Source of the DNA: Mytilus trossulus
Taxonomy: Eukaryota
Direction: 5' to 3'
DNA: 64,000 bases
Assembly: GCF_036588685.1 (NCBI RefSeq)
Contig: NC_086377.1
Coordinates: forward strand, 22,320,001-22,384,000
Shown: positions 355 through 60,519 of the stretch, piece after piece
Layout of the letters: every line of letters begins with the position of its first letter
Position numbering within the stretch: the stretch's first letter is position 1
Program-made: the position numbers and the translations under genes
The notes under the pieces: generated by a model
Databases searched by the model: none
Told to the model about the DNA's origin: nothing
Seen by the model: the letters and a program-made list of their open reading frames with translations, nothing else

Positions 355-3300
355 GTGACTGTGTTAATGCTGGGATTTGCATATCCTCTGATTTCAGGAA
401 ATATGGTAGAACATCTCTATAACTCCAGCCTGTTGCTCCTTCAGCCGCCCATTCATTATAATCTATAACAGATCCTCTGTGATGAGTGGAATACCCTGTA
501 CTACTACAACCACCAAGTATTTTACCACGTGGCCAATATTCTCGCTTTAATTGTAAAAAAGTCAATTATACATGTAACAAACATAGGTTTTTTTTATCTT
601 AGTGTTTTGAGTTTTGTTTACAAAAAACACAAAAAAAATGTTTCAGCATATGTTTGAAATCAGGAATTATTTAAGCACCAAACTGAAACATATCAATACT
701 AACGTGCAATATGCTGCTAAACAATACATTAAACGAAGGAAAAGAAATACAGAGTATGTCTTGTATGGCATGTCCATTGCTTGTTATGCTTGTTTCTTGT
801 GTGCTGTTTATGTACTTTCCGACTATTTTATGTACTAGATATTTAAACTTGAATCAGTTCGATTCATATACAGATTAGGCAGAGCCTAATAAACAGTTCA
901 GATCTCAATAAAAACACTACTAGTTGTTATAATTAGTGCAAAGATTAGTGTATTGGTGAAAAAAAGGGGGGGGGGTAATTTCATGTGCTCCAGGGGAGGT
1001 GCACTCATTGAACATTATTTATTGTTTGATATTTTAATTATTACCCTGTCGTTCATGGCAAGCCCAGTTCTCTGCTGAGGGACGGAGTAATAGTTCCAGT
1101 CGTCTTGTGTCAGTTGAATGTTTGCGGCATACGCCGGGACAGGAACATTCTCGTTTTCTAAATCAGATCTTCCGGCTTCAACCAACAAAACAGAATCAGG
1201 ACCTTCTGACAAACGGGAAGCTAAAACAGCCCCGGATGTCCCACCGCCAACTATTTAATGCAAAGAAAATCAGTGCAATGATGGTTAATCTTTCTGATTT
1301 GCTGGTATTTTATATCGAGGTATTTCCGAAAACATCAAAACATAAAATTATCTATTATTGCTTACATCCATTTATTTCCACTTTGTTGCTTATGTTTTAG
1401 TTGTGACATTGGCACTAATTCTAAATCATCTCCTTATTTTTATAAAGCTTCATTGTTTAACAAATATGTAATAATGGAAAGACACCATTGTTCCATCCTA
1501 TTTCAACTAATTGTATACATGTATCTTGTTTGTGAAGTAATACATGTAACGAGGAAAGTTCAAACTTTAGTTATATAACAAGAACAGTTTGATCGCTTTG
1601 GATTAAAAGTTATGTTTTTACTGACTATGGTATATACATATAGGATGAAACAATTAAGGGTGTGTGTATGGGGTTTACAAAATACAGAATAGAACAGAAA
1701 CAAGAGGCTCTCAAGAGCCTGAATCACTCACCTTAATTTTTTTGGTTAAATCTCTCATCAATGATTGTTTTGGCTTTTCAATTTATTTAAATGTTCTTTG
1801 AATCGTCCTATTTTCTTCAAAAGCAAAAAAAAAATCGTTTTCTCCTATGTTCTATTTAGCCATAGGAGCTATGTTTCTTGACACACAAGGAAATGAAATA
1901 TAAAATTTATACTAGATACTCTGAAACTCATTTAGCCTAAGTTTGGCTGAAATTGATACAGCAGTTTCAAAGGAGATTTTTTTTAAAGTATGTTAACATG
2001 ATGAACAAATTGTGAAAAAAGTCTTTAAAGGGCAATAACTCCTTAAGGGGTCAAATGACAATTTTGGTCAAATTGACTTATTTGTAGATCTTACTTTGCT
2101 TAACATTTTTGCTATAACAGTTTATCTGTATCTATAATAATATTCAAGATAATAACCAAAAACTGCAAAATTTCTTTAAAATCATCAATTCAGGGGCATT
2201 ATAACTGAAAAACCAGTTACCCAATTCGGCTGAAAATTTCGGACAGGTAGACCTTGACCTAATAAATACTTTAACTTCTTGTCTTATTTGCTCTAAATGC
2301 TGGAGTTTTTGAGATATAAGCGAAAAACCGCATTTTACCCTGTGTTCTATTTTTAGCCAGGACGGCCATGTTTTTGACGAAATAAAATATAAAGCACAGA
2401 TTTTATTTTATACACCCTACTGATCATTCAGTTGAAGTTTGGTTGAATTTGGTTTAGTAGTTTTAGAGGAGAAGATTTTTTAAAGTTAGCAAATTTGATG
2501 AACAAATTGTGAAAAGTTGTCAGTAAAGGACAATAACCCCTTAAGGGGTCAATTGACAATTTTGGTCATTTAACTTTTTTGGAGATCTTATTTTGCTGAT
2601 CATTTTTGCTGTTTAAAGTTTATCTTTATCTATAATAATATTCAAGATAATGACCAAAAACTGCAAAATTTCCTTAAAATTACCAATTAAGTGGCAGCAA
2701 CCCAACAATGGGTTGTTTGATTCATCTAACAATTTCAGGGCTGATAGATCTTGACCTAATGAACATATTTATCCCATCTCAGATTTTCTCTAAATGCTTT
2801 CGTTTTTGAGATATAAGCCAAAAACTGCATTTGACCCCTGTGTTCTATTTTAAGAAACGGCGGCCATGTTTTTTGACGGATCAAAAATCGAAGCGCACAC
2901 TTTGTGCATGATAATCTAAGGAACAATCATGCTAAATTCATCCAAATCCATTCAGTAGTTTCAGAGGAGAAGATGTTTGAAAAATTGTTAACGACGACGG
3001 GCGCCAAGTGATGAGAAAAGCTCACATGGCCTTTTAGACCAGGTGAGCTAAAAATGGGAACATGATGCCGCATAAATGAAAAACAACATAAACAACAAAG
3101 AAAATATCGAGGTACATCAATATAGAATTATATGCAAAAAATTAAGAATACCATCAAATTACTTACAAAAATAAAGAATACAAAAAATGAAGGACTCCCT
3201 TTTTTTCACCTGGGAAATTGTAATGCTGCCGTAAGATCTCAAACATGCCGAAACTCAAGACTGACCAAGGCACCCACTTACAATGGAGCTCAGTTTTTGA

Positions 3301-4204
3301 CATAGTTCAATACATGTTTTGACTTAAGCACAGTGTCGGTTAAAAAAAAATCATTAAATGGGAGGACTGGCTGCTTAAGAGAGGACCCGCATCAGTCATG
3401 TCTCGGTTATTCCCTAACTAATCAAAAGGATAGGGCCTGGCCCCCAAGAAAACCCCTCTAAATTCTTCCCTAGCTGACAAGGCATTATCAAAAAAGACAT
3501 TTGACACACACATATATCAACTATTTTAGCTAAATGAGGTTAGCTCACGTAATTCTGATCAGATGCATACATGTAAAGGTAGAACTACATGTATTAAGGA
3601 AGGTTTTACAAATGTTGCTTTAATGCAAAAACGTAGCCCAAAAAAATAGTAGGAATAAAGAATTTAAAAAACAAATCAATTGTGTTACTGATGTAAATGT
3701 CTTAATAAGAACGCCGGAAACAAATCTTTTTATTGATTAACATTTGTGTCTGATTATTCTAGATTCCGCGAGCAAGGCCACCATTAAGAGATTCTTTGTT
3801 TGACATTGCATATATAGATCTGTGCCTTGTAGGGTTGAGAAGGAAAATTATGATTTCCTTGAAAAGGGGGTGGGCAAGAAAGAGACGATAAAAACTGCAG
3901 AGTCAGGCATTTTATAAGAATTGAACTATTACGGTCATTGCACTTTTTTTTAGTATAGGCTGCTCTTTTAGATGAGTGGATTGGCATCACTAAACAACTT
4001 AAATTTTGTGTTGGTCCTAAACGACTTTGATACAGTTTTACAAATAGATAATGTGGTAGACCTAATTATTAATGATTTACCTATTATATAATCGTACGAC
4101 GGACGAAGTTGTCGTTGTAATGGACGATCATTGCCAAGCTGTGTTACATAATTTGTTAATACGGCTTGTAACGCCATGAAGAACATAGGCGGAATTCGGA
4201 TCAT
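355..4204 (-). CDS. GMC oxidoreductase (glucose/choline dehydrogenase-like), 5' part; gene continues beyond the left edge
   Basis: Exons 4204-4081 (MIRIPPMFF...SYDYII), 1250-1045 (VGGGTSGAVLASRLSE..VLLVEAG..WNYYSVPQ) and 544-355 (REYWPRGKILGGCSS..RG..DYNEWAAEGATGWSYRDVLPYFLKSE). GT-AG junctions have compatible phases. FAD-binding YDYIIVGGGTSG and the GMC-typical WPRGK-LGG and GWSY..VLPYF.KSE motifs are present. Confidence 0.93.
1699..3054. mobile_element. Non-autonomous Helentron-type element (HINE-like) with ~500-bp internal tandem repeat, in a GMC intron
   Basis: Terminal palindrome aggctct-ca-agagcct, sub-terminal ctcacct/aggtgag inverted repeat, two ~500-bp internal units, a (gac)n microsatellite and terminal agctcac..aggtgagct hairpin before an A-run. 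Homologous to 5927-7245. Confidence 0.7.
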
Positions 4205-10244: not shown

Positions 10245-10822
10245 GATGAAGTGGGGTTTGATCACGTTAAAGTTGTTTTTTGATATAGCTGCAATGGGTT
10301 TTTGAGCACGCTGAAGTGTGATCTTGCTCAAGTTGAAGTGGAATTGTGATCAAGCTGCAGTAGGTATTTGATCTCGGTGAAGTGGATTTTTGATCACTCT
10401 GAAGTGGTTTTTGGTCACGCTGAAGTAGATTTTTGACATAGCTGTAGTGTGTTTTTGTTCACACTGAAGTGTGTTTTTGATCAAGCTATAGTGGGTTTTT
10501 GATCACGCTGAAGTGGATTTTTGATCACTCTGAAGTTGTTTTTGGTCACGCTGAAGTAGATTTATGACATAGCTGTAGTGTGTTTTTGTTCCCGCTGAAG
10601 TTTTTTTTTTATCAAGCTGCAGTGGGTATTTTATCACGCTGAAGTGGGTTTTTAAATAAAACTAGTGGGTTTTTGATCATGCTGAAGTGTGTTTTTGATC
10701 AAGGTGCAGTGGGTATTTTATCACGCTGAAGTGGGTTTACGAATAAAGCTGCAGTGGGTTTTCATTCACGCTGAAGTGTGATTTTGATCAAGCTTCAAAG
10801 GATAATTCATCACGCTGGAGTG
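10245..10822. repeat. Degenerate minisatellite, ~21-22-bp unit (gctgaagtgggtttttgatcac)
   Basis: Roughly 25 tandem imperfect copies are visible, with higher-order duplication of blocks. Confidence 0.9.
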
Positions 10823-12387
10823 TGTACTGTATTTATTTGGAAATAACAAAATCCATCGTTTAGAAAAAATCCACTGGAAAAATATGCACATAAAATATCA
10901 GCGATACATTCGTTTTATCATATTCTTATAGAAAAAAAAATGATATAATTTAACCCAATGATAAAACTAGCTTTCTACATATATTTAGTCATTTATTTGA
11001 AGAATTGCTGTAGCCGTGTGATATGACTTTTCTTGTTAACTGCTTCCGGTTTATATCAACTGCTTGCGTCTCATATCAATTACTTCCGGTTATTATCGCA
11101 TGCTTTTCTGTAACTTTATCGCATGACATTTCGATTTCAATTTTCAAATTCTGGGAAAAACACCTCATTGATACCTTTTTATTTGTGGGTAAAACATTAC
11201 AAAATATGGATAAAAAAATTAAGAATCAGGAAAATACATTATTTATAAATGCAAAACAAGTATTACAACACATGCAATTTTCTAAAGTTTTAAAAATAGT
11301 TTTCTGTAAATATTCTGCTATGAAGTATACGATGAAACGCAGCAAAAAAAGTACAGAAGATCTTCAATTTCTTAGAAATCGCTGATTAAAAATAAGCGGT
11401 TGGGGGAATTACACCAAAAAGAAGTGACATGTCAGGTCATAATTGTTACCAAATGTAACCATAGGATGCAATAAAATAGTAATTTGTGAGAATTAGGATG
11501 ACATTAAACAATTATTGTGTTTGTCTGTTTGTCTTTTTCATTTTTAGCCATTAAGTTGTCAGTTTGTTTTAGATTTAAGAGTTTGACTGTCTCTTTGGTA
11601 TCTTTCGTCCCTCTTTTAAATAAGATCGTTAAAAATTACCTTGTAGACGTAATGCATGAACGTTCTTTTGAATTGATAAAATTTCCAATGTTCAATGTCT
11701 TGAACTGTGTGTGAACGTTGTTAGTTTTAAGTTTGATTTTTTTAAATCTTTTATGGATGCAAGATTTCAAAGTATTTATGCATATGAAATTGTCACTGTT
11801 ATGTACTTTTACGAAATAACCAATTTATTATGATATTTTAGCGTTAATGTATTTATAAGACTTTTTAAGCCTTTTGCAAGTATCTAATACCATTTTTACT
11901 ACAATCATGTAATATTGTTTGTAAATACTATGATGTGCATTTTGATGACGCAGGAGTCAGTACCCCGCTGGGGCTTGCCCCCGTTGTAAAGGGGTAGTTT
12001 CACAATAAAATATATATATTACATGATTTGTTATTTCCGCATTGATCACACTATTTTTTGTATCGTAGGGCTTTCCTATTCGTCAAAAATGGAGAAGGCC
12101 TGTTGATATCGTATTGCTTTAACATTTACTACATTAAAACATGGCTGTACCAAGTCAAGAGTATGACAGTTGCTGTCTTTTCTTTATCCTCCTCAACATG
12201 TGTACAGAAAAAATAAAGAATAATTTTTTTAGAAGGCTACTTTGGAAAATGTTCGAGTTGTTGACAAAACGTAATTAACAAATACAGAAATCTTCTAATG
12301 GCATACTTTTTACAACAAATGATTTGATGTGGCCTCTAAAATAAATGCAGATTTTGCAAATCTAATGTTCATTAAAACTAATAAATA

Positions 12388-35192: not shown

Positions 35193-36748
35193 ACGGTCAA
35201 GTATGGAAATCGTAAAGTCAGATAAGGTGCCACATTCTTCATATACATGTCATTATGATAGTCAGGCCACTTACACTATAGTAGACTATTATGAAATGTG
35301 TGATACAATCTTTCTATTTTGAAAACCAAATTTTCTTTTCATATAGGAAAATAATTTATTGTCAACAGGGTGAATTTTAAATACTTCGGTGGGAATCCAC
35401 ATGTTCGGTGACCGTTTTGGATTATCTGTTTCACAGATGACAACATCTATGTTTCAAATAGAGGAATCACAATTCCTTCGAATACAAATTCATATAAGAT
35501 GGATTTTGTCTTAACTGTATCCCATTTTGTTACATCGCTTCTCAAGTTAAGTTTATTTTATCTCAATTGCCTTTTAAGATTGAAGTTTTAGTGTTAAGAA
35601 CAGATTTGTGTTTCTTATTTTGTACGGTAATTGTGTCTTGTTTTCTTATTTCATTATTTTGTACGGTAATTGTGTTTTTGTTTTCAGAAATCAGTATCCC
35701 TATGAATGAAGTGACAATTAAAATCAAGTTATTAAATGGGGGACTTCATAACACACGGTATCTTGATTCTTTTACAGACTTATCTCATTTTTATAAACAA
35801 AAAGTGGACTTTTAAAAAATAGAGAATGGAATTGGAGAATGTATTAACGAAACTAAACACCGATTTAAATGCAGAAACAGTTGAAAGTTATTGGTAAAAT
35901 TAGTACGAAGCAGTTTTGTTTCATTCTTGGCTTTGAAAAAGGTTATGATATATGTGAAACAGTATATTATATCTTTAAACTTAATCTGTTGGTCCGGTTT
36001 CATATATCAGCAAGTCTTGATTTTGGTATGTTTTGTAGAGATTTACAAAAAATGAAACTTGTTTTTATGATTTTGTTTTTAACTTCATGTAAATCCAATT
36101 TGTTTTTAATAAAACTGCAACATCTGTGTCTGTGCCAAGTAAAATGACTGCAATTTAGTGGTTGATTTTGGTTTGTGTCTGTTATGTTTGTGATATGTTT
36201 ACTGCTGATTTGAAATAAAAATTACATCGGGTTTTTTTTTTCTGTTCGTATCTTATCATTTGACTTTGTTTAACATGACATTTTTGGATACGTTTTAGGT
36301 GTTTGCCTCGCTTTTTATAGTTTCAGTATAGTAACTATAGTTGATGAAATCCAAGAAATTTCGGTTATAATTGCCTCATATGCAATAAAAGAAGTTGAAT
36401 TTTATATAAGACCGTTTTGTGGTCAGTAATTGTTGACCATTTTTTTTTTTTTTTATTAATTGCTTATAGAAAAACAGTTATACCATAAACAAAATATTAT
36501 TTTATATAATACTTGTCGATCTCTAATTACATATCATACTCATTGCTCTAGTTTTTACATACATGTAATGGCTCCCAAAAAATAAGAAATTAACTTGTGC
36601 AAAATAATTACTATTTTCAACTTGTTTTGATATAACTATTACACCAGACAAGAACACAAGAAACATATTTTCAAGGTTGTGATTTACTATTGCAAGATAT
36701 ATAAATGTGCGCTATAATACATGGATTTGTGTTAACAAAATATTTAAT

Positions 36749-37093
36749 TTAGAAGTATTTTTTGCCAACGACTAATCTTCGTCCTCCACCAAATCTCCCT
36801 CCTCGTCCACCGCCAAACCCTCCTATAAATCGGCCGCGAAATCCCCCTCCACGTCCACCTCCAAATCCTCCTAAAAATCTGCCACCGAATCCTCCGGGAA
36901 ATACTCCTCCTTTACCAAATCCAATCCATGGAGCTCCTATACCCCATCGATATCCACCACCTACGCCCCAACTTATTCCTCCTGCTCCCCATCCGGGTCC
37001 TCCAAATCCGCCGCCCCATCCACTTATTCCTATAAAGGTGGCATTAGTGCACACTGCTGCCAGTAGTAATCCCACGGCAATTGAGAGCTTCAT
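36749..37093 (-). CDS. Secreted glycine-rich, Trp/Phe/Arg-rich small protein (114 aa; shematrin/shell- or byssus-protein-like, or antimicrobial-like)
   Basis: Signal peptide MKLSIAVGLLLAAVCTNA, GGF/GGW/RGG repeats, no acidic residues, basic tail RRLVVGKKYF. Single coding exon with an acceptor tttag at 37101-37105 just upstream of the ATG. Confidence 0.88.
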   Translation of the reverse strand: MKLSIAVGLLLAAVCTNATFIGISGWGGGFGGPGWGAGGISWGVGGGYRWGIGAPWIGFGKGGVFPGGFGGRFLGGFGGGRGGGFRGRFIGGFGGGRGGRFGGGRRLVVGKKYF

Positions 37094-37198
37094 GTTATAC
37101 CTAAATATATATATATATATATATATAAATGTCTAAGAATATAACTAAAACACACTAATTGATACATTAAAAAGTTCTATTAGATGTTAAATAGAAAT

Positions 37199-37237
37199 AC
37201 GCAATATTTCGCTAAACAAATTAGCTTCATCAGGCGT
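37199..37237 (-). ncRNA. Minimal hammerhead ribozyme in the third Penelope 3' fragment
   Basis: Same motif, about 100 nt upstream (transcript sense) of the Gly-rich gene splice acceptor. Confidence 0.7.
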
Positions 37238-37886
37238 GTGCATCTCTCAAGGTGAAATCGGATGCATGACAGAAAAATATTTTTGTAGCTTAATCTATAC
37301 AAGATTTGAGGGATGGGTGTAACATATTAATTCGGTCATAAAATATGTTTGTAGCTACAACTACATGAAGTTGGAATAAAAGTTTAACACATTTATAGAT
37401 GTTCGATTAATTGTATAAATTTTTATAAATTAATTTGTATGATTTCAAGATAACTATGGTTTTGATTTGCTTTGAAATCTTTTTTCGTCTCTCTCATTGA
37501 GTCCATCAGTTTCAAGAGTTCGTAACTGGTGCATCCAAAATCTCTCTCTTTTTTGTCTTCCTTGTATAGATTAAGCTACAAAAATATTTTTCTGTCATGC
37601 ATCCGATTTCACCTTGAGAGATGCACACGCCTGATGAAGCTAATTGGCGACTTTGCAGCACTTACAATTGCCCCTTCCGCATTGTGTATAACCTCCATAT
37701 ATATATAATGTCTATATATAATGTCTAAAAATAGCAACAATCAACATTCAATCTAATTAAGCGTGGATCAGTTTGTGAAAATAAACTGATACAGTTACTG
37801 AATTAAAATTATGTAAATGTCTAAGAATATAACTAAAACACACTAATTGATACATTAAAAAGTTCTATTAGATGTTAAATAGAAAT

Positions 37887-37925
37887 ACGCAATATTTCGC
37901 TAAACAAATTAGCTTCATCAGGCGT
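37887..37925 (-). ncRNA. Minimal hammerhead ribozyme, mirror copy in the left arm
   Basis: Reverse complement of 39419-39457. Confidence 0.7.
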
Positions 37926-38141
37926 GTGCATCTCTCAAGGTGAAATCGGATGCATGACAGAAAAATATTTTTGTAGCTTAATCTATACAAGATTTGAGGG
38001 ATCGGTGTAACATATTAATTCGGTCATAAAATATGTTTGTAGCTACAACTACATGAAGTTGGAATAAAAGTTTAACACATTTATAGATGTTCGATTAATT
38101 GTATGAATTTTTATAAATTAATTTGTATGATTTCAAGATAA

Positions 38142-38677
38142 CTATGGTTTTGATTTGCTTTGAAATCTTTTTTCGTCTCTCTCATTGAGTCCATCAGGTT
38201 CAAGAGTTCGTAACTGGTGCATCCAAAATCTCTCTCTTTTTTGTCTTCCTTGTGTATCCCAATTTTGATTTTTCTCAATGATTTGAAATGTGATGTTTTC
38301 AAAATCATGTCCTGCTCTTAAAAGGTGTCTTGTAATTGGGCAGTTCCTTTCTTTTGTATAAAATGACCGATGGTTATTTAGTCGGATGTTAAATGGGGTT
38401 TCTGTTTCACCAACATATTGTAATTTGCAAGTTCCACACGTTAGAACATAAATGCAATTTTGCGTTTTGCAATTTGATGTTATGAATATGTTGTAATTTT
38501 TCTTTGTGACTGTGCTGATGAACTTGGTTTCTATATTGGCGACTTTGCAGCACTTACAATTGCCCCTTCCGCATTGTGTATAACCTCCAATTGTTGATAT
38601 CTCCCGTTTAGATACTTTGGATGATACTAGAATATCTTTGAGGTTTTTTGGTCTGCGGTAAGCCATAACGGGAGGTG
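38142..38677 (-). pseudogene. Penelope-like GIY-YIG endonuclease domain (5'-truncated, left arm)
   Basis: PPVMAYRRPKNLKDILV, Cys-rich linker CGRGNCKCC, CIYVLTCGTCKLQYVGET (GIY-YIG), RLNNH, RERFWMHQLRTLEPDGLNE. No RT present. Confidence 0.88.
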
Positions 38678-39202
38678 ATGGCTTACCGCAGACCAAAAAA
38701 CCTCAAAGATATTCTAGTATCATCCAAAGTATCTAAACGGGAGATATCAACAATTGGAGGTTATACACAATGCGGAAGGGGCAATTGTAAGTGCTGCAAA
38801 GTCGCCAATATAGAAACCAAGTTCATCAGCACAGTCACAAAGAAAAATTACAACATATTCATAACATCAAATTGCAAAACGCAAAATTGCATTTATGTTC
38901 TAACGTGTGGAACTTGCAAATTACAATATGTTGGTGAAACAGAAACCCCATTTAACATCCGACTAAATAACCATCGGTCATTTTATACAAAAGAAAGGAA
39001 CTGCCCAATTACAAGACACCTTTTAAGAGCAGGACATGATTTTGAAAACATCACATTTCAAATCATTGAGAAAAATCAAAATTGGGATACACAAGGAAGA
39101 CAAAAAAGAGAGAGATTTTGGATGCACCAGTTACGAACTCTTGAACCTGATGGACTCAATGAGAGAGACGAAAAAAGATTTCAAAGCAAATCAAAACCAT
39201 AG
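38678..39202 (+). pseudogene. Penelope-like GIY-YIG endonuclease domain (5'-truncated, right arm)
   Basis: Same translation as the left arm from MAYRRPKNL onward. Confidence 0.88.
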
Positions 39203-39418
39203 TTATCTTGAAATCATACAAATTAATTTATAAAAATTCATACAATTAATCGAACATCTATAAATGTGTTAAACTTTTATTCCAACTTCATGTAGTTGTA
39301 GCTACAAACATATTTTATGACCGAATTAATATGTTACACCGATCCCTCAAATCTTGTATAGATTAAGCTACAAAAATATTTTTCTGTCATGCATCCGATT
39401 TCACCTTGAGAGATGCAC

Positions 39419-39457
39419 ACGCCTGATGAAGCTAATTTGTTTAGCGAAATATTGCGT
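39419..39457 (+). ncRNA. Minimal hammerhead ribozyme in the Penelope 3' UTR
   Basis: ACGC-CUGAUGA-A-GCUAA(uuugu)UUAGC-GAAA-UA-UU-GCGU. Stem III is vestigial and palindromic (AUAU), as in PLE-associated HHRs. Confidence 0.7.
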
Positions 39458-40452
39458 ATTTCTATTTAACATCTAATAGAACTTTTTAATGTATCAATTA
39501 GTGTGTTTTAGTTATATTCTTAGACATTTATATATATATATATATATATATATCATTTAATATGTAGTATGTGATACTATACATATTTTAATCATTTACA
39601 ATTCATGATTTTAGGATGATAACGTTATCATGTTATGGTATTATGCAGGTGTTTTTAGTTTTTTTAGAGACATACTATATTAATTCAGTACAGTGTTTGT
39701 AAGTAGACATGATAAACTGTCATTCATGCACATTTTAGTATGCATAAGAATAATTTGTTCTAATTATGTTAGAATGTATATTTAAGATTGATTTTCTTGT
39801 TGGTTTGACTTAATGATCGGTTGTTGTTCGATGCCCGTATGAATGAGGAATACACTTCATCTAAGTATGAATCAAATATATTGAAACTGTGAATACATCA
39901 AATATGTTATCCTCTTTAAATAAAATATTGCGTTTCAGAAAAAGCAGCGTAGAATATACAGTGTTTTCCATCATTGACACAAATAACCACAAGCAACTAT
40001 TAAGACCACATACCGAGTTATCCTATTGCTATATAAGATAGATGCAGATATAGTGTACATTAATTAAATGTATAAAGCAAAGGTACAACCACTATATGTG
40101 TTCTATGTTACAGGATTTTACCTTACATACAAACAATTGGTTTATATATGTGCAAAATTCTATGATCAGAATTGCCTGAGTACATTATAGATCTGTCTGA
40201 TTTCGTAAAGATTTACCTGATTTTACGTTAAAAGCATATTATTTTTTTCTAGTTTTATTTTAATTTAGTTTTACAGTAGATATTCCTTGTTTTACAATCG
40301 ATTTACACGATTGTAGCATATATTGACATGAGTTACTCATGGATCTACTGCAATTTACCATTTGTAACATGATTTTAGCATCAATTTGCCTGAATTTGTC
40401 TTACATTTTATTTCAACTTAATATGGATTTATTTTACACTACGCTAGATTAA

Positions 40453-40725
40453 GGTGGTACCTAACACTACAGGGAGATAACTCTGTAAAGTCAGCTAAAC
40501 GTTTTAATGACGTTGTGTTGTAAAAGGAATATTAAGCTTCTCAATGATCAAAATTGGTGTTTGTCAAATTGCTATATAACCAGTGTAATTTTTCTGACAA
40601 AACGGTTGGTTCAAATTTTTTTATATTTTAATATTTTTGTTAAAGGGTCAAAGTAAATACTTTGGCAAAATTTTATGAAAATTAAACGAGCCAAATTAAT
40701 TTTAGCGAAAGTGTTGGGTACCACC
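40453..40725. mobile_element. 273-bp TTAA MITE (inverted copy of 8506-8778)
   Basis: TTAA at 40449-40452 and 40726-40729, same TIRs and same length. Confidence 0.8.
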
Positions 40726-43008
40726 TTAATATAATTTGACCTGGCATATATCTGTTTATACCCTTAATCACTGATAGTTTTCGGATGGTCGTATCGTAAT
40801 GTTACGACCACCCGAAAATGGGAGACATGTTTTGTAAATAACAAACAAGAGGCAATAACAATATACCTTTCTCAAAAAAATCTTTCGAGAAAGTAACACA
40901 GCTCCGGTTATGATAATTATTAGTTACGAATATAGAAAGTGCGTTTTTTTTAAGAAATTGGACATTACATGAAATAACAAAATCTTCAATGATGTCTTTC
41001 TTTATATTTTGCATCTATTATGTCTATTGAAAAGATGATTTAAAACAAACTATTATGCATCAACTAGGTGGAATTAAAAAAAATCTACCATTTGAATTTA
41101 CACTTTAATTCGAAACGGAATAAAAAAAATCATTGTTGAAGGCCGTACGGTGACCTATAGTTGTTAATGTATGTGTCAGTTTGTTCTTGTATGGATAGTT
41201 GTCTCAATGGCAGTCATACCATATCTTCTTTTTTATAAGCATGATACGTAAGGAATCAAAATAAGCTAAACATATTTATATGTTATGGCGGTCGTTGTCG
41301 AGACTAACGTACCTGAATTGAAAGACATACATCTTGTTCCCATAGCCTAGATTTTGAGGAGTCGTATTGTAATTTGGTAAAGTAAAGCTGATTTTAAGAA
41401 GCAATGTCGAAGTTCAGGTATAATTATAACGCGTGGTTAATTGAAATTCTGAATACGCCTATTGGTACCATGCTTTCCGATATACACACTGAACTTAAAA
41501 AAGGAATCAAATATAGGTATGTGAAGCTTGTATCCAGGATAATATTTAGAAAATAGAACTGTATGCTTCAACTCAGCGTACTGGTTTTTTAAAGCTACAT
41601 ACATTCATACAAATAAACATATGATATAAATATTATTTTCAATCTGCATATGTATGTGATAGTTGCCGCAGTACATTTAGTTCTACCTTGTAATATTATC
41701 ATGGCTCAAAAGCCTGGCCACAAACTACTTTATTTGTTTATCTTACTCTTAAATTCAACGAGTGTAGTAGTGTCAAATATATATCAACAATATTCATCCA
41801 TTCGAGGTTATCAAAATGTTCATGGTTTCAGTTTTTATTCCGTACAAATACTTAGAAATAAAACCAATGATACACTGCAATATATGATCGTCATGTATTC
41901 GACACGTTAAATACACCAGGACTTCGAAGTGCATTTGTGGATGTACCTTCATCTTGAACGACCATAAGTCGAATGTTTGTAGGCCAATGTTTTATAAAAA
42001 CTGCAATAGCTGATTAAAAATTAAAGATGATTCAATAATTTCATCTGCCGACATGATTACAATTAACAAAAAAATCGTAAATAAAACAAAATCTAAAAAC
42101 GAATATGAGGGAATACATATATATTCAACAATGTGTTGCCTTGACGTACAGGAAAACATATATTAATACTAATATTAATTTGAAAGGATGTGAAACAATT
42201 TGTATATGATTGGTATGTCGCCCCCTTACAAATATTTCTACATGTGAAATAAATTGAAAAGTTATTTAAAAAAAAAAAAAATTTGCGGCTTCAAGATGAC
42301 TGAGAAAGGTTTAAGAACTCAGACTAATCTGGGTAACACATAATATTGTTTATAGTAAACCATGTATGAACACAGAGTTTATCAACATAGTAATGTGGAC
42401 AGTACTTTTAAAATACTTTGATAAAAATTTATCTAAATACTCGAGTTACGGTCATCTTTCAAAGTTACAACCATCTTGTCTTGGTTATGATTATCATCCA
42501 AACTACTATGGTTGACATCAAACATTTAAAGTAATGGCCATCATGCTTGACTATTTTAATGAATATTTGACGGAAATTTGAATGATTTTATGTATAAAAT
42601 TTGGTTTCAATATCAACGCCCTTACGATAGGTGTACTAATATATATGAGACAAGCGAGTTGGCTTAAATGAACTTTGTACTGCACGAAAATCGGAAATGA
42701 AAATCTTATCCCTTGTTGGGTCCCATATTCAGAAGGTCGTAACTTTACTTTACGACTTTCTGCTTACCACTAGTGATTAATATATTAATCAACTTCGATT
42801 CAGTTTAGTTCATTCAATATAGTTTTACAATTTAGAACTGAAATTATATATACGTGTGTTTAATTTCAAATGAATGAATTCTACAGTTCACAAAAGTAAT
42901 TATGGGATCAGATTTAGATTTCTTGATTATTTTCGTAACATATAGGTTCAACATCAGAATAAGAAGCTGATATTTATTACATTAACCTATATCAAAATCA
43001 CACCTTAC

Positions 43009-43068
43009 CTAGTATATGTTCTTAATCTTTTCACTGTGTTCCAAACATATTCTTAAAAAGTTTATATA
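43009..43068 (-). promoter_or_regulatory. Candidate TATA promoter and ~30-nt non-coding exon 1 of the Gly-rich gene
   Basis: TATATAAA at 43068-43061, an ACAGT Inr-like motif ~30 nt downstream (~43037) and donor TAG|gtaagg at 43008. Would splice to the acceptor at 37101. Confidence 0.5.
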
Positions 43069-44011
43069 CTACATTATGCTATAAAAGATTGATGAGGAAT
43101 AATTTTCAATTCATCAAAAAAAAAAGATGAAAGTCTTTATTATCTTGTTTAATCACCTAATTGATGTAAAAAAATCATAAATATTCACTTATTAAAATAT
43201 CATTTATCATAAGTGATTAGTAAAATGTAAATAATAAAATGATTTTACATAACATGCATACGTACTTATTATAATTATTCTATAGATATAGGTAAAATGT
43301 GGCATGAGCGCCAATGAGACAACTCTCAATCTAAATAAGAAGCGGTTATAGGTCAAGGTACGACCTTCAATACGAATATTTGGCTCACACAAATCAGTAA
43401 GCGATAAAGTGCGCCAAAAAATTACAAGTGTCAAACCATTCTAACGGGTAAACCAACGCTCTATTCTAAAAACGAAAAACACCTATGAACAACATAAACA
43501 GACGACAACCACTGAACATCAGATTCCTAGCCTATTTTAAATATTTCAGTTGGACATGTTAAGCTTTATTAAAAAACTTACCATACTGCATTTTTTTTTA
43601 AATCAATGGACTGTGTAAGAAAAACAGTTTTATCTCTCACCTAAAAAAGTATCAGCCAATATTCAAGAGGAGACAACTCCTGTAAAATAGTATTGGTATG
43701 CTTGATCTACATGGACTACAAATATTGTTTATTCTAAGCTTTTTAGATATCAAAATGTTTTAAGTGGGTTCGCCAATTATGGAAAACGAATTATACATAC
43801 TCTTTCCATAAAGTTTTGATAGGTTGAGATATATTTTGTACTTGCTTGATATGTCTCCCCCTTAAACACATTGCAAGATGTGAAATAAATCGACTAGTTA
43901 TTTGAAAAAAATATGAACAAATAACTGAGGTTTAAACAATCAGACTAATCTTTAATTGTATCTTGATAATAAATATATTTGTTTAAAAATAATTGTATGT
44001 CTGATACAAAA

Positions 44012-44812
44012 TAAGATGTGGTAGTATCGCAGATGAGACTCCTATCCACAAAAGACCAAAATGACCCAAACATTAACAACTATAGGTCACCGTACGGCCT
44101 TCAACAATGAACAAAACCCATACCGCATAGTCAGCTATAAAAGGCCCCGAAAAGACGATGAAAATAATTCAAACGAGAAAACTAACGGCCTTATTTATGT
44201 AAAGAAATGAACGAAAAACAAATACATAAAATTGAGAATGGGAATGGGGAATGTGTCAAAGAGACAACAACCCGACCAAATAAAAAACAACAGCAGAAGG
44301 TCACCAACAGGTCTTCAATGTAGCGCGAAATTCCCGCACCCGGAGGCGTCCTTCAGCTGGCCCCTAAACAAATATATACTAGTTCAGTGATAAGGAACGC
44401 CATATTAATTTCCAAATTGTACACAAGAAACTAATATAAAAATAATACAAGACTAACAAAGGCCAGAGGCTCCTGACTTGGGACAGGCGCAAAAATTCGG
44501 CGGGGTTAAACATGTTTGTGAGATCTCAACCCTCCCCCTATACCTCTAACCAATGTAGAAAAATAAACGCATAACAATACGCACATGTATGTAACACATA
44601 AACATACGACATCCACTGAATTACAGGCTCCTGACTTTGGACAGGCACATACATAAATAGTGTGGCGGGGTTGAACATGTTAGCGGGATCCCAACCCTCC
44701 CACTTACCTGGGACAGTGGTATAACAGTACAACATAGGAACGAACTATAAAAATTAGTTAAAAAAGTCTTGACTCATCAGATAGACAAAAAATACAAGTG
44801 GACGTGGCCGGG
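44012..44812. repeat. Interspersed repeat family C interrupted by a nested family B copy (44228-44584)
   Basis: Family C (aagatgtgg...gccaatgagacaactctc...cgtacggccttcaacaatga) also occurs at ~7615, 15330, 18640, 41130, 43295, 55888, 61150 and 61860. Here it resumes (tgtaacacataaaca) after the B insert. Confidence 0.7.
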
Positions 44813-56521: not shown

Positions 56522-59500
56522 TGTGTAGCTTTTTTTCCTTTTGAAAAATATTACAACATTTTTATTCTGATTGGTGTACAATTTTATGAATAATTTCGTT
56601 TTGTAGAAAATATACTCAACTGTTTTGTCTACACATTGATTGAATTTTCTAACATAGTGGATACTCAATTGCGTTGTTGTTTTTAACGGAAATGTAAGTT
56701 TTTAACTAATCTTTTTGTATATGTTTCTGATTAACATTTAAATTGAATTGAATGATATCCGTTGACAGTGTTTAATTCATGTGGCACTTTCTCAAGATAA
56801 TTATATTCGGATAGGTCTACATTTTTATGGATTATTATTCTATATAACCTAAACAACACAGTTTTAGAAGGCTTATATTTTTCTTATATGGTGCGTGGAT
56901 TGTGGACGACAATGTGTGTTTTTCAAATATTGTTGTTTACAAATTACTTTACTATACAACTTAAATTGAATGGAGTTCTTAGAAAGTGTTTAATTTTTCA
57001 ATAAATCTACCGCATTGTTTATACAATTAAAATAATAGTATAACTAAACAGTGATACATTTATCTAGTGCAAGAATATAGACAACAGTGTTGGTTTTAAA
57101 TCAAATCAAACCAAACTTTCTTGACATTGGTTTATAATGCCATTTATAGTAAAATTCAAGAGTTGTAAAGAGGGACGAAAGATACCAGATAAACTCATAG
57201 ATTGAAAATAATCTGACAACGGCATGGCAAAAAAAAAGACCAAGAGCAAATACTATCACATAAGACACAACATAGATGCATGATAATATAGCAAGTTGAT
57301 GTAGTTGGGTAATGGATGTTGATGTTCATTTCATTTATACAAAATAGTGATCAATAGCGATTAAGTTAAAGTATGTCTGACAAGCATTATTATCCATACA
57401 TCACGACGATAACTGTAGACAACATATACACATCGTAAATAATATTACACTATCCAGAAACTGTTATAATTTATCAATTGTATTATGCGCAATGGTATAC
57501 GTTCAATAACCAGTCGAAAATAACTGTGAATCTTACCTAAATTATATATATGGTGTCCTTTTGTTACATTATTATCTTTCGTATATGCATAAAGGTAAAG
57601 GTTATCTCTGATTATAAGGTAAATGTAAAATCTAGTCCAAAGGTTACCCTATATTTTATTGTTTTAAGTAATATAAAATAGGTACATTCCCTTCTAGAAT
57701 TAAAAAGTAAACCTTGACTTTAATTTAACATGTTGTGTTATTTTTCCACATAACAGCTCCTATTAAAAAAAATAACAAATGTGAAATACCTGAACGGTAC
57801 AAATTTAAAGTATGATAACAATTAGTAATTATATTTACCAATTACATGAATTATGCCCTTGTAAGAATGATTAAAGTTGCGATAAAGAAACCCATGGTGT
57901 AATAACTTCGATGTAATACAAAGATTGTTTTCGTTAAAATCAAAATCGTAGATACATACACGAGCGAATGGAACAAATTGAGATTTATAAACACCATAAG
58001 ATTGTTAGAAAGAAACATCTTCGTCTACGTGTAACAATATATAATTAACAATAACAATTGAAAAAATAATCTATTCTATCAGTATTAAATCACGTAAGGT
58101 ATTACAATTCTCTGCATGGTCATGTTTTTAACAGAGAGGCATATGTGGATGATAATAAAAGTATCTCACTGTGTTATCCTTCACCTTCACTAAAATAGAT
58201 TTGGCTCGTTTAATTTTCAGAAAACTTTGACAAGGTATTTACATTGACCCTTTGACAAAAATACAGAAATATTACACTAGTTATATAATAGTTTGACGAA
58301 CACTTATTTAGATCAGCAAGAGGCTTAATATTAACAACAAGTCCTGCAATCAAGCTATTGAATTGTACAAATATAACATTTTTTTAAATTTCTTAAATCA
58401 TAAGTATGTCGTTTATCAGTATTACCAATGTTATTTAAACTGATCGGGCGGAGCTTAAGTTTTAATTAGCATAAGGACAGTCTATTTGAAGATGTGTGTG
58501 GCAAGGATGATTACCGTTATAATTATAACTGATTTCTAATCACCTATCAGTGTTATCAAAGTAATTTACTAAAGAATAACTGGACACTTCATTAATGAGT
58601 TTATCCTAAAACACCTATTCATAGATGGAATGGTTTGTGATGAGCGAACTGGTGAAGCTCCGCCCAGTCAAGTGAAATAAATAGAGTAATATCAATAATC
58701 AGTAAACATGTGAATTTCAATAGTGTCCACACGGGTATGCTGATATGAACTGCTTGCTTCCTGTTTCTGTATGAATATGACATTATTTTTTGTTTCAAAG
58801 CCCTTATCAAGTTTCCTTGTGTACATTGATTTATAATGATGTGTGTTTTTATTATAAATAGGTAATAACAGCGTTATGACCATAACTCAACCCGTTCAGT
58901 TACAGTAACACACATTAATCATGACAGGTGAGTTTGTATATATTTATTAATTGAAACGTTAAATGTGTTAACATCACATGTAAAGGCAAAATAGGACTAA
59001 CTTTATAAACAAAAAGCTTCTTATATCTTTACTTGATATATAAGGGAAACAAACAGAAAATATTCACTACCAAATATACATACTTCTTCAGAAAAACTAA
59101 ATGGTTTTCAACAATAGCATATCCAATTAATCCGGTCTTTAATACGGAAATGATGAATGTTTATCATGTTTATTGTTTGAAGGTAACATATAATCACAAT
59201 TTTCCAAGGGAATCCATTTCAATTATATTTTCCCCGAGTTTGTTCGCATTTCCTCCCTGATCAATTGTATTTATGACAACCATATTGTGAAAGTTCGCTA
59301 TCCTCCCCCCGTATATTCAAAAGAACCTTCAAGTACACATATCAAATTATAACACTAAAGGTTTTTCTCATTGAGTAAGACTCCTCAATACATCAACATA
59401 ATTTAAAGACTTCACATGTAAATATAATCAAAACAATACTAGTGTACGAGGGTATCACCAGCCAAGTAGCCAGTACTTCGGTACTGGCATGAAAATACGG

Positions 59501-59683
59501 ATTTGTTTGTGTTATTAAAATTTGCTGTTACAAAATATTAGAAATTATTATAAATTAAGGAATGTATCTCCCTCATGCAAAGCTCTGATTCCTTTCATGA
59601 ATTTGACTATACTTTTTGGACCTTTTGGATTGTAGCTCTTCATCTTTTATTTAAGCTTTGCATTTCAAATATTTTGGCCACGA

Positions 59684-59727
59684 GCATCACTGAAGAGACA
59701 TTTTTTGTCGAAATGCGCATCTGGTGC
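59684..59727 (+). ncRNA. Type I hammerhead ribozyme, unit 1
   Basis: GCAUCA-CUGAAGA-GACA(uuuuu)UGUC-GAAA-UGCGCA-UC-UGGUGC. Predicted cleavage after 59721. Confidence 0.88.
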
Positions 59728-60034
59728 AACAAAATTGGTACCGTTGATTTTATTACTACCACTGGGTCGATGCCTCTGCTGGTGGACTATTAGTCCCCGA
59801 GGGTATCACCAGCCCAGTAGCCAGTACTTCGGTACTGGCATGAAAATACAGATTTGTTTGTGTTATTAAAATTTGCTGTTACAAAATATTAGAAATTATT
59901 ATAAATTAAGGAATGTATCTCCCTCATGCAAAGCTCTGATTCCTTTCACGAATTTGACTTTACTTTTTGGACCTTTTGGATTGTAGCTCTTCATCTTTTA
60001 TAGAAGCTTTGGATTTCAAATATTTTGGCCACGA

Positions 60035-60078
60035 GCATCACTGAAGAGATATTTTTTGTCGAAATGCGCATCTGGTGC
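60035..60078 (+). ncRNA. Type I hammerhead ribozyme, unit 2
   Basis: Same core. A C>U change in stem II keeps a wobble pair. Predicted cleavage after 60072. Confidence 0.85.
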
Positions 60079-60373
60079 AACAGAATTGGTACCGTTGATT
60101 TTATTACTACCACTGGGTCGATGCCTCTGCTGGTGGAACATTAGTCCCCGAGGGTATCACCAGCCCATTAGCCAGTACCGAAAAATACGGATTTGTTTGT
60201 GTTATTAAAATTTGCTGTTACAAAATATTAGAAATTATTATAAATTAAGGAATGTATCTCCCTCATGCAAAGCTCTGATTCCTTTTACGAATTTGACTAT
60301 ACTTTTTGGACCTTTTGGATTGTAGCTCTTCATCTTTTATATAAGCTTTGGATTTCAAATATTTTGGCCACGA

Positions 60374-60416
60374 GCATCACTGAAGAGACATTTTTTGTCG
60401 AAATGGCATATGGTGC
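60374..60416 (+). ncRNA. Type I hammerhead ribozyme, unit 3 (variant)
   Basis: Core intact, but there is a 1-nt deletion in the stem III palindrome (UGGCA) and the cleavage site is UA. Confidence 0.6.
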
Positions 60417-60519
60417 AACAAAATTGGTACCGTTGATTTTATTACGGGTTTAAAATCTTCTGAACATTGACGAAGAAAAGAAATCAATGTAACTTAGTAC
60501 ACACTATTGGAATCTCATT

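What the first reader, a model, noticed from the sequence alone, without database searches (positions are those of the whole stretch)
37101..39553. Penelope complex sits ~25 nt from the splice acceptor of the Gly-rich gene, placing two sense hammerheads and a giant hairpin in its pre-mRNA
The insertion is in a (TA)n tract directly next to the tttag acceptor and would displace the native branch point by ~2.4 kb. If exon 1 is at ~43009-43038, the pre-mRNA carries two same-sense minimal HHRs (37887-37925 and 37199-37237, 688 nt apart) that could pair through their palindromic stem III, as PLE HHRs do as dimers. One of them can alternatively be sequestered in the 853-bp duplex. This is a potential TE-imposed switch or a natural knock-down allele.
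Basis: partly seen in the sequence, partly recalled or inferred. Interest (0 to 1): 0.7.

Follow-up and report, generated by a model that had tools for sequence, protein, structure and literature searches.

The report
Self-masked Penelope hammerheads beside splice acceptor
Broken-off copies of a common Penelope-like jumping gene sit 26 bases from the likely splice acceptor of a mussel glycine-rich protein gene, but each of their two same-sense ribozyme motifs is predicted to be zipped shut by a mirror copy inside the same insert, so this is likely an ordinary recent insertion and not a ribozyme switch.

Summary
The anatomy is real: a 2.4-kb insert (37128-39528) between two (TA)n tracts, ending 26 nt before a TTTAG acceptor, with an 853-bp perfect hairpin and identical minimal hammerheads at 37887-37925 and 37199-37237. 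It is likely two adjacent 5'-truncated insertions of an abundant mussel Penelope-like family (GIY-YIG). A 96%-identical native copy also ends in (TA)n and shows that the apex is a fold-back at a 4-nt microhomology. The dimer switch is not supported. Exon 1 and an empty allele have only indirect support; expression of the filled allele was not measured. The insert supplies branch-point-like motifs, and the three nearest cryptic acceptors add no upstream ATG, so a mild knock-down through dsRNA or altered 3' splice-site use stays open. The scan noted three similar intronic Penelope palindromes in other genomes. Ordinary; interest 0.2.

The parts
43061..43068 (-). TATA-like box of the Gly-rich gene (inferred)
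   Evidence: about 30 nt before an initiator-like CA
43009..43038 (-). Candidate non-coding exon 1 with AG|GTAAG donor (inferred, junction not shown)
   Evidence: indirect fit with the 33 extra letters of the X12 exon-2 contig
39530..39553 (.). Right (TA)n target tract
38678..39528 (+). Unit 2 inverted arm (fold-back copy; antisense in the pre-mRNA), ending at the family's first terminus
39419..39457 (+). Third minimal hammerhead (plus strand); its reverse complement covers a sense hammerhead in the pre-mRNA
38667..38677 (.). 11-nt hairpin loop; native element sequence runs to 38681, then folds back at a CCAT/ATGG microhomology
38142..38681 (-). 5'-truncated ORF end: CX4CxxC linker and GIY-YIG endonuclease
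   Evidence: PF01541, E 3e-7, scored on the mirror ORF 38669-39202; 97% to an RT+EN protein
37816..38681 (-). Unit 2 sense arm (ORF end plus pLTR)
37887..37925 (-). Minimal hammerhead A, predicted cut after 37891; paired in the long duplex
37720..37815 (-). 96-nt native tail running to the family's second terminus
   Evidence: continuous alignment 37697-38681 to L001
37698..37719 (.). TA remnant with a repeated terminal heptamer, between the two units
37643..37697 (-). Unit 1: 55-nt GIY-YIG fragment (template switch)
37561..37645 (+). Unit 1: 85-nt fold-back piece, antisense to the 5' half and core of either sense hammerhead
37128..37565 (-). Unit 1: sense 3' end of the element (3 substitutions against the arms); carries branch-point-like motifs (A at 37180, 37167) and cryptic YAGs
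37199..37237 (-). Minimal hammerhead B, predicted cut after 37203; core paired with the 85-nt piece
37106..37127 (.). Left (TA)11 target tract
37101..37105 (-). TTTAG splice acceptor (inferred)
36749..37100 (-). Exon 2 with the CDS of a 114-aa Gly-rich protein with a signal-peptide-like start
   Evidence: covered by a depth-252 contig of run X12

Best explanation
The insert is likely two recent side-by-side insertions of an abundant mussel Penelope-like retroelement into the (TA)n tract at the 3' end of a likely 5'-UTR intron, and the fold-back copies made during insertion are predicted to base-pair with both sense hammerhead cores, so the host pre-mRNA would not be cut by them. Shown: element family, termini abutting TA, native apex and tail, microhomologies at the strand switches, complementarity. 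Inferred: reverse transcription primed at nicked TA from two alternative termini 96 nt apart; the cDNA 3' end snapping back on itself (4-nt match at the apex, 5-nt match at 37565) to give the 853-bp and 85-bp inversions. Predicted: the antisense arm is transcribed first and zips hammerhead A as it emerges, and the 85-nt piece then captures hammerhead B. Any effect on the gene would come from long dsRNA or 3' splice-site choice, not self-cleavage, and the three nearest cryptic acceptors would leave the coding sequence intact.
For: GIY-YIG hit; 97% identity to an RT+EN protein whose cluster has members named from Mytilus edulis and M. trossulus. L001 aligns at 96% over 989 nt, includes tail and hammerhead, ends in (TA)13, and reads I-F-P-S-P-P across the apex where the window reads G-K-P-S-P-P. 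Summed contig depth on the element reaches 77,225 against 36 on the flank in X1, and 7,988 against about 10 in X2. MFE pairs both cores; the alternative fold too; probability that any core base of hammerhead B is unpaired is <=0.001 in unit 1 alone; a prefix ending at 37880 already has hammerhead A fully paired; dimer penalty 87.9 kcal/mol. Inverted 5'-truncated copies, one-sided tails, palindromic junctions by self-priming and (TA)n targets are described for PLEs (PMC8557442, PMC3846280, passages).
Against: Energies are secondary-structure only, with no tertiary core, proteins or A-to-I editing; even with the 85-nt piece held unpaired the model charges the dimer 11.2 kcal/mol, so part of the penalty is model bias. 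No run was shown to carry the filled allele. The exon 1 junction and the empty allele are indirect. The two-event reading rests on the TA remnant and 3 substitutions; one complex event is not excluded. The tail (96 nt) is longer than the 30-40 bp usually described.
Confidence: 0.8

Rival explanations
1. Ribozyme dimer switch: hammerheads A and B pair through stem III and cut the pre-mRNA unless the long hairpin sequesters one.
For: Both motifs have intact cores and a palindromic stem III, same sense, 688 nt apart; the dimer fold is nested and can be drawn; PLE hammerheads are proposed to act as dimers (PMC4209133).
Confidence: 0.03
2. Knock-down allele without ribozyme action: the 853-bp dsRNA (editing, retention, dicing) or changed 3' splice-site use lowers mature mRNA from the filled allele. 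Compatible with the best explanation.
For: Insert ends 26 nt from an acceptor that has no pyrimidine tract; it adds five YAGs within 112 nt of the AG, one AATAAA (39276) and one ATTAAA (39485) on the pre-mRNA strand; the gene is expressed in X12.
Against: Branch-point-like motifs are supplied; YAGs at 37155, 37145 and 37133 add no ATG (the one at 37177 would add an out-of-frame ATG at 37167); both poly(A)-like motifs lie in the duplex; no expression data for this allele.
Confidence: 0.3
3. Host-driven hairpin that yields siRNA against the active family, in the manner of maize Mu killer.
For: Perfect 853-bp hairpin covering ORF end and pLTR downstream of a likely host promoter; family copies are 96-97% alike, so siRNAs would match them.
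Against: No small-RNA data; inverted PLE insertions are common, so this locus need not matter; the family is already at very high copy.
Confidence: 0.1
4. The palindrome is an assembly or fold-back-read artefact.
For: Arms identical over 853 bp; no independent contig was shown to cross any junction.
Against: The inverted arm stops exactly at the family's terminus and rejoins TA and unique flank; unit 1 differs from the arms at 3 sites; junctions carry microhomologies and match native termini. A fold-back read would not return to the correct flank.
Confidence: 0.05
5. The gene starts in or just upstream of the TA tract, so the insert hits the promoter and most of it is not in the pre-mRNA.
For: The junction 43009-37100 was not seen; X12 had no depth in the 43006-43132 bin; its 33 extra letters could also be TA.
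Against: Unique TATA + initiator + donor arrangement at 43068-43008; 33 letters fit 7 nt of exon 2 plus 26 of a 29-30-nt exon 1; a 26-nt piece across a site where X1, X2 and X6 differ from the window (43027) may be too short to lay; X12 has no depth on unique intron bins.
Confidence: 0.1

Closest known systems
Insertion units of canonical endonuclease-positive Penelope-like elements, Neptune/Nematis type (PMC8557442, PMC3846280; passages)
   Same: C-terminal GIY-YIG with CX2-5CxxC linker, 5' truncation, adjacent inverted copy, palindromic junction, one-sided tail, (TA)n target, insertion next to an earlier copy.
   Different: Tail is 96 nt, not 30-40; the inversion is long (853 bp) and includes ORF; clade was not placed by phylogeny.
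Minimal type I hammerheads of metazoan PLEs (Cervera and de la Pena 2014, PMC4209133; parts 1-2 of 4 read)
   Same: Short helix I (4 bp), extra base between A9 and G10.1, G10.1-C11.1 pair, palindromic 15.2-16.2 without loop 3.
   Different: Helix II is 5 bp (7-8 in Schistosoma); here both sense copies are covered by cis antisense.
Poseidon element of Anolis (PMC11167929; parts 1-2 of 4 read)
   Same: Two reverse-transcription start sites defining a tail; ATT at AT-rich targets; its hammerhead did not cut without protein.
   Different: Different clade and host; its tail lies in the ORF start, here no open frame was found over the tail.
Maize Mu killer (PMC3440606; start of abstract in a search listing only)
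   Same: Inverted duplication of element sequence read through from a flanking gene into a long hairpin.
   Different: DNA transposon in a plant with shown silencing; nothing of the kind is shown here.
Shematrin / KRMP shell-matrix proteins (PMC3896809; passages), for the host gene
   Same: Small Gly-rich protein with a signal-peptide-like start and a basic, Tyr-bearing C-terminus (ends KKYF).
   Different: Gly is interspersed with Phe, Trp and Arg, not GnY repeats; the listed C-terminal signatures are not matched exactly.

Membership tests
EN+ Penelope-like element | GIY-YIG endonuclease C-terminal to a PLE-type reverse transcriptase | tested here: met
   PF01541 in the window; 97% to P0001, which carries PF00078 + PF01541. 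The RT itself is truncated away in the window.
EN+ Penelope-like element | pLTR with hammerhead motif, inverted 5'-truncated copy, one-sided tail | tested here: met
EN+ Penelope-like element | AT-rich / (TA)n target with target-site duplication | tested here: inconclusive
   TA at all termini and in L001; a duplication cannot be delimited inside a microsatellite and no empty-site letters were seen
Neptune/Nematis clades | CX2-5CxxC linker before GIY-YIG and internal CCHH motif | tested here: met
   C-x4-C-xx-C, then CxxC and two His, in the translation; definition from PMC8557442
Neptune/Nematis clades | Placement in the RT phylogeny | not tested
   no reference set was fetched
PLE minimal hammerhead | Core CUGANGA/GAAA/UH, helices I and II, extra base after A9, palindromic 15.2-16.2 | tested here: met
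PLE minimal hammerhead | Self-cleavage as a dimer | not testable with these tools
   needs an assay; folding predicts it is blocked in this context
Ribozyme-controlled expression switch | Two accessible folds, one of which frees an active ribozyme | tested here: not met
   two near-equal folds exist but both pair both cores
Mu killer-type silencing locus | Hairpin transcript processed to siRNA that silences the family in trans | not testable with these tools
   no small-RNA data for carriers
Shematrin/KRMP | GnY repeats and RKKKY-type C-terminal signature | tested here: not met
   sequence against PMC3896809 passages; no Pfam hit, no homolog at E<=0.001

The most novel reading that the evidence does not exclude
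The insert gives the pre-mRNA two folds within 0.5 kcal/mol of each other. In the first-formed fold the element's own branch-point-like motifs next to the acceptor stay outside the long duplex. In the second, reached by strand exchange from the paired (UA)n tracts, the long antisense arm buries them and loops out the whole 2.4 kb, bringing the native intron back against the acceptor. A transposon-built conformational splice switch (not a ribozyme switch) could so set 3' splice-site choice and mRNA level of a likely shell-matrix gene, while the hairpin feeds siRNA against the active family.
Probability: 0.06. Interest if true: 0.65.

Novelty: new member of a known kind. Interest (0 to 1): 0.2.

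Why it matters
As an ordinary case it shows why intronic Penelope insertions may be tolerated: the fold-back step that builds the inverted copy also supplies the antisense strand that would mask the ribozyme. The locus records both termini, two snap-back junctions and a repeated terminus, a compact test case for the PLE self-priming model. If the filled allele proved to change splicing or yield siRNA, it would be a natural handle on how long dsRNA next to a 3' splice site is handled in bivalves.

Tried and rejected
No whole genome is held for this window, so copy number and other sites could not be counted in an assembly. Rfam gave only sub-threshold miRNA hairpin matches. The Gly-rich protein had no Pfam family, no homolog among 7,992 scored candidates of similar length, no exact record in the cluster collection, no relative among 594 pattern matches in metagenome contigs, only Atlas hits under 0.8, and no paralog in the window. 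Reads were laid on two stretches (36200-37600 and 39450-43250) using 5 of the 24 listed runs (X1, X2, X12 twice; X24, X6 once); the tool skipped 37094-37138 and 39450-39562, so neither the splice junction nor the insertion borders were shown in letters. X1 matches the flanks without a difference over 894 and 910 nt but its contigs end at both TA tracts, which fits a filled or an empty allele; by the tool's own warning the best DNA holder may not be independent. X24 (about 6% of the run read) gave 84 reads, all on the element and none on exon 2, so it says nothing on this gene. Absence of X12 depth on exon 1 is not taken as evidence. L002-L004 (3 of the 4 loci) had no nucleotide match to the insert and were set aside. 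Look-ups of earlier findings by place and by sequence were empty. Literature searches for a Penelope insertion at a bivalve splice acceptor, Penelope hairpin siRNA and intronic ribozymes with exon tethering listed no paper on this locus; only listings were seen.

Full report
Observation. The stretch 37128-39528 lies between (TA)11 at 37106-37127 and a TA tract at 39530-39553. On the minus strand the left tract is followed by TTTAG (37105-37101), 7 nt, and the ATG of a 114-aa glycine-rich ORF with a signal-peptide-like start. The element ends 26 nt before the AG. Arms 37810-38669 and 38675-39534 differ at 2 of 860 positions, both terminal, so 853 bp are perfect around an 11-nt loop. Identical minimal hammerheads lie at 37887-37925 (A) and 37199-37237 (B) on the minus strand, a third at 39419-39457 on the plus strand, and a half motif at 37627-37645. 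Each has a 4-bp helix I, an intact core, an extra A, a 5-bp helix II and a 4-nt palindromic stem III, matching the minimal PLE hammerhead of PMC4209133 (parts 1-2 of 4 read; supplements not seen, and they may list mollusc examples).

The element. The arms encode the end of an ORF with a GIY-YIG domain (PF01541, E 3e-7). Of 145 longer candidates, 12 scored E<=1e-20; the best, P0001, is 97% identical and carries RT and GIY-YIG domains. Six of its 19 cluster members are named, all from Mytilus edulis or M. trossulus. A C-x4-C-xx-C linker and an internal CCHH fit the Neptune/Nematis type as defined in PMC8557442 (passages); no tree was built. Summed contig depth on the element reaches 77,225 against 36 on the flank in run X1 and 7,988 against about 10 in X2; this is no copy number but shows a very abundant family.

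How it was likely built. One of four metagenome loci, L001, aligns to 37697-38681 at 96% over 989 nt, carries the same hammerhead, and ends in (TA)13. It shows that 37720-37815 is a native 96-nt tail between two termini, and that native sequence runs through the loop to 38681 (native I-F-P-S-P-P, window G-K-P-S-P-P). The cDNA end at that point can pair back over CCAT/ATGG (predicted -2.5 kcal/mol), which would prime the inverted arm. Unit 1 shows the same habit: a 5-nt match at 37565 starts an 85-nt fold-back copy, a 3-nt match at 37643-37645 switches to 55 nt of the GIY-YIG region, then TA. A TA remnant with a repeated terminus (37698-37719) and 3 substitutions between unit 1 and the arms suggest two events; one complex event is not excluded. 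Inverted truncated copies, one-sided tails, self-primed palindromes and TA targets are described for PLEs (PMC8557442, PMC3846280, passages), two start sites defining a tail in PMC11167929 (parts 1-2 of 4), and insertion next to earlier copies in PMC6765202 (passages). An artefact is unlikely because the inverted arm stops at the family's terminus and rejoins unique flank, but no independent contig was shown to cross a junction.

Is it in the pre-mRNA? The only TATA + AG|GTRAG pair on the minus strand between 37101 and 64000 is 43068/43009; 7% of 500 approximate shuffles of 6 kb gave such a pair. In run X12 (guessed RNA) a 369-nt contig of depth 252 covers exon 2 (36758-37093, 11 differences in 336) and has 33 further letters, which fits 7 nt of exon 2 plus 26 of exon 1 but could also be TA. 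X12 has no depth on unique intron bins, and none on the exon 1 bin. So the gene model is likely but not shown, and X12's allele is not this haplotype. In X6 a contig of depth 2.83 with 19 differences in 295 nt starts at 39569 and has 163 unlaid letters towards the site.

The ribozyme claim. In the MFE of the whole insert, A is in the long duplex and B's core is in the 85-bp duplex. A prefix ending at 37880 already has A fully paired; in unit 1 alone each core base of B is unpaired with probability <=0.001. Forcing the long arm onto B gives a fold 0.5 kcal/mol higher in which the 85-nt piece holds A. Two states exist, but neither frees a core. In the short transcript monomer A has P about 0.08, but single minimal hammerheads showed no activity in PMC4209133, dimers only low activity, and the anole one needed its protein (PMC11167929). 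Proteins or A-to-I editing could loosen the duplexes; editing would also be expected to hit the A-rich core (own knowledge).

Splicing. The native side has no strict YTNAY closer than about 155 nt to the AG; the insert offers matches at 25, 66 and 79 nt and YAGs at 37212, 37177, 37155, 37145 and 37133. Use of the nearest three would lengthen the 5' UTR without an upstream ATG; 37177 would add an out-of-frame one. The two TA tracts pair in the whole-insert folds, which would bring the native intron near the acceptor. So splicing could survive; a partial loss through dsRNA handling is possible (0.3) and untested.

Comparison and verdict. This works like, and by the tested features is, an insertion unit of an endonuclease-positive Penelope-like element. 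It fails the test for a ribozyme switch. A 2026 preprint (10.64898/2026.07.22.740005, part 1 of 5 read) reports exclusion of hammerhead-bearing retrozymes from genes in vertebrates, so selection against such insertions is plausible in general. Three earlier notes of this scan describe similar intronic Penelope palindromes in other genomes (not checked by me); they agree with a reading I had recorded before seeing them. Searches listed no paper on this locus. The host protein resembles shematrin/KRMP proteins but misses their signatures (PMC3896809, passages). The boldest open reading is a two-fold structure that sets branch-point access, with the hairpin as an siRNA source like Mu killer (PMC3440606, listing only); probability 0.06. 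Overall: new member of a known kind, interest 0.2.

Noticed in passing
window 37232 and 37228 (hammerhead core, family copies in runs X1, X2, X24): Family copies vary in the core: a change equal to U4C has about 17% of depth in X1, 20% in X2 and 8 of 28 reads in X24; one equal to G8A has 12% in X2. The window's copies have the standard core.
   Followed up: no
window 36749-37093 (-): 114-aa Gly/Phe/Trp/Arg-rich protein with a signal-peptide-like start ending KKYF; no homolog found by sequence search, though the Atlas holds the exact sequence; high contig depth in X12.
   Followed up: partly
window 40449-40730: Very high-copy ~280-nt repeat in the same intron (summed depth over 1 million in X1), with sharp ends; likely a MITE or SINE-like element.
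   Followed up: no
window 41130-41240 and 44001-44110: Another very high-copy short repeat, present as an 83% inverted pair around the candidate exon 1.
   Followed up: no
window 59447-60445, 1939-2982, 10257-10825: Tandem arrays with periods 351 (95% matches), 498 and about 22/44/87 nt.
   Followed up: no
L003:3465-3510: A more canonical-looking hammerhead motif downstream of a distant GIY-YIG match.
   Followed up: no
L001:14-350 and 3286-3622: A second, 64%-identical RT-region segment in inverted orientation on the same 3.7-kb contig.
   Followed up: no
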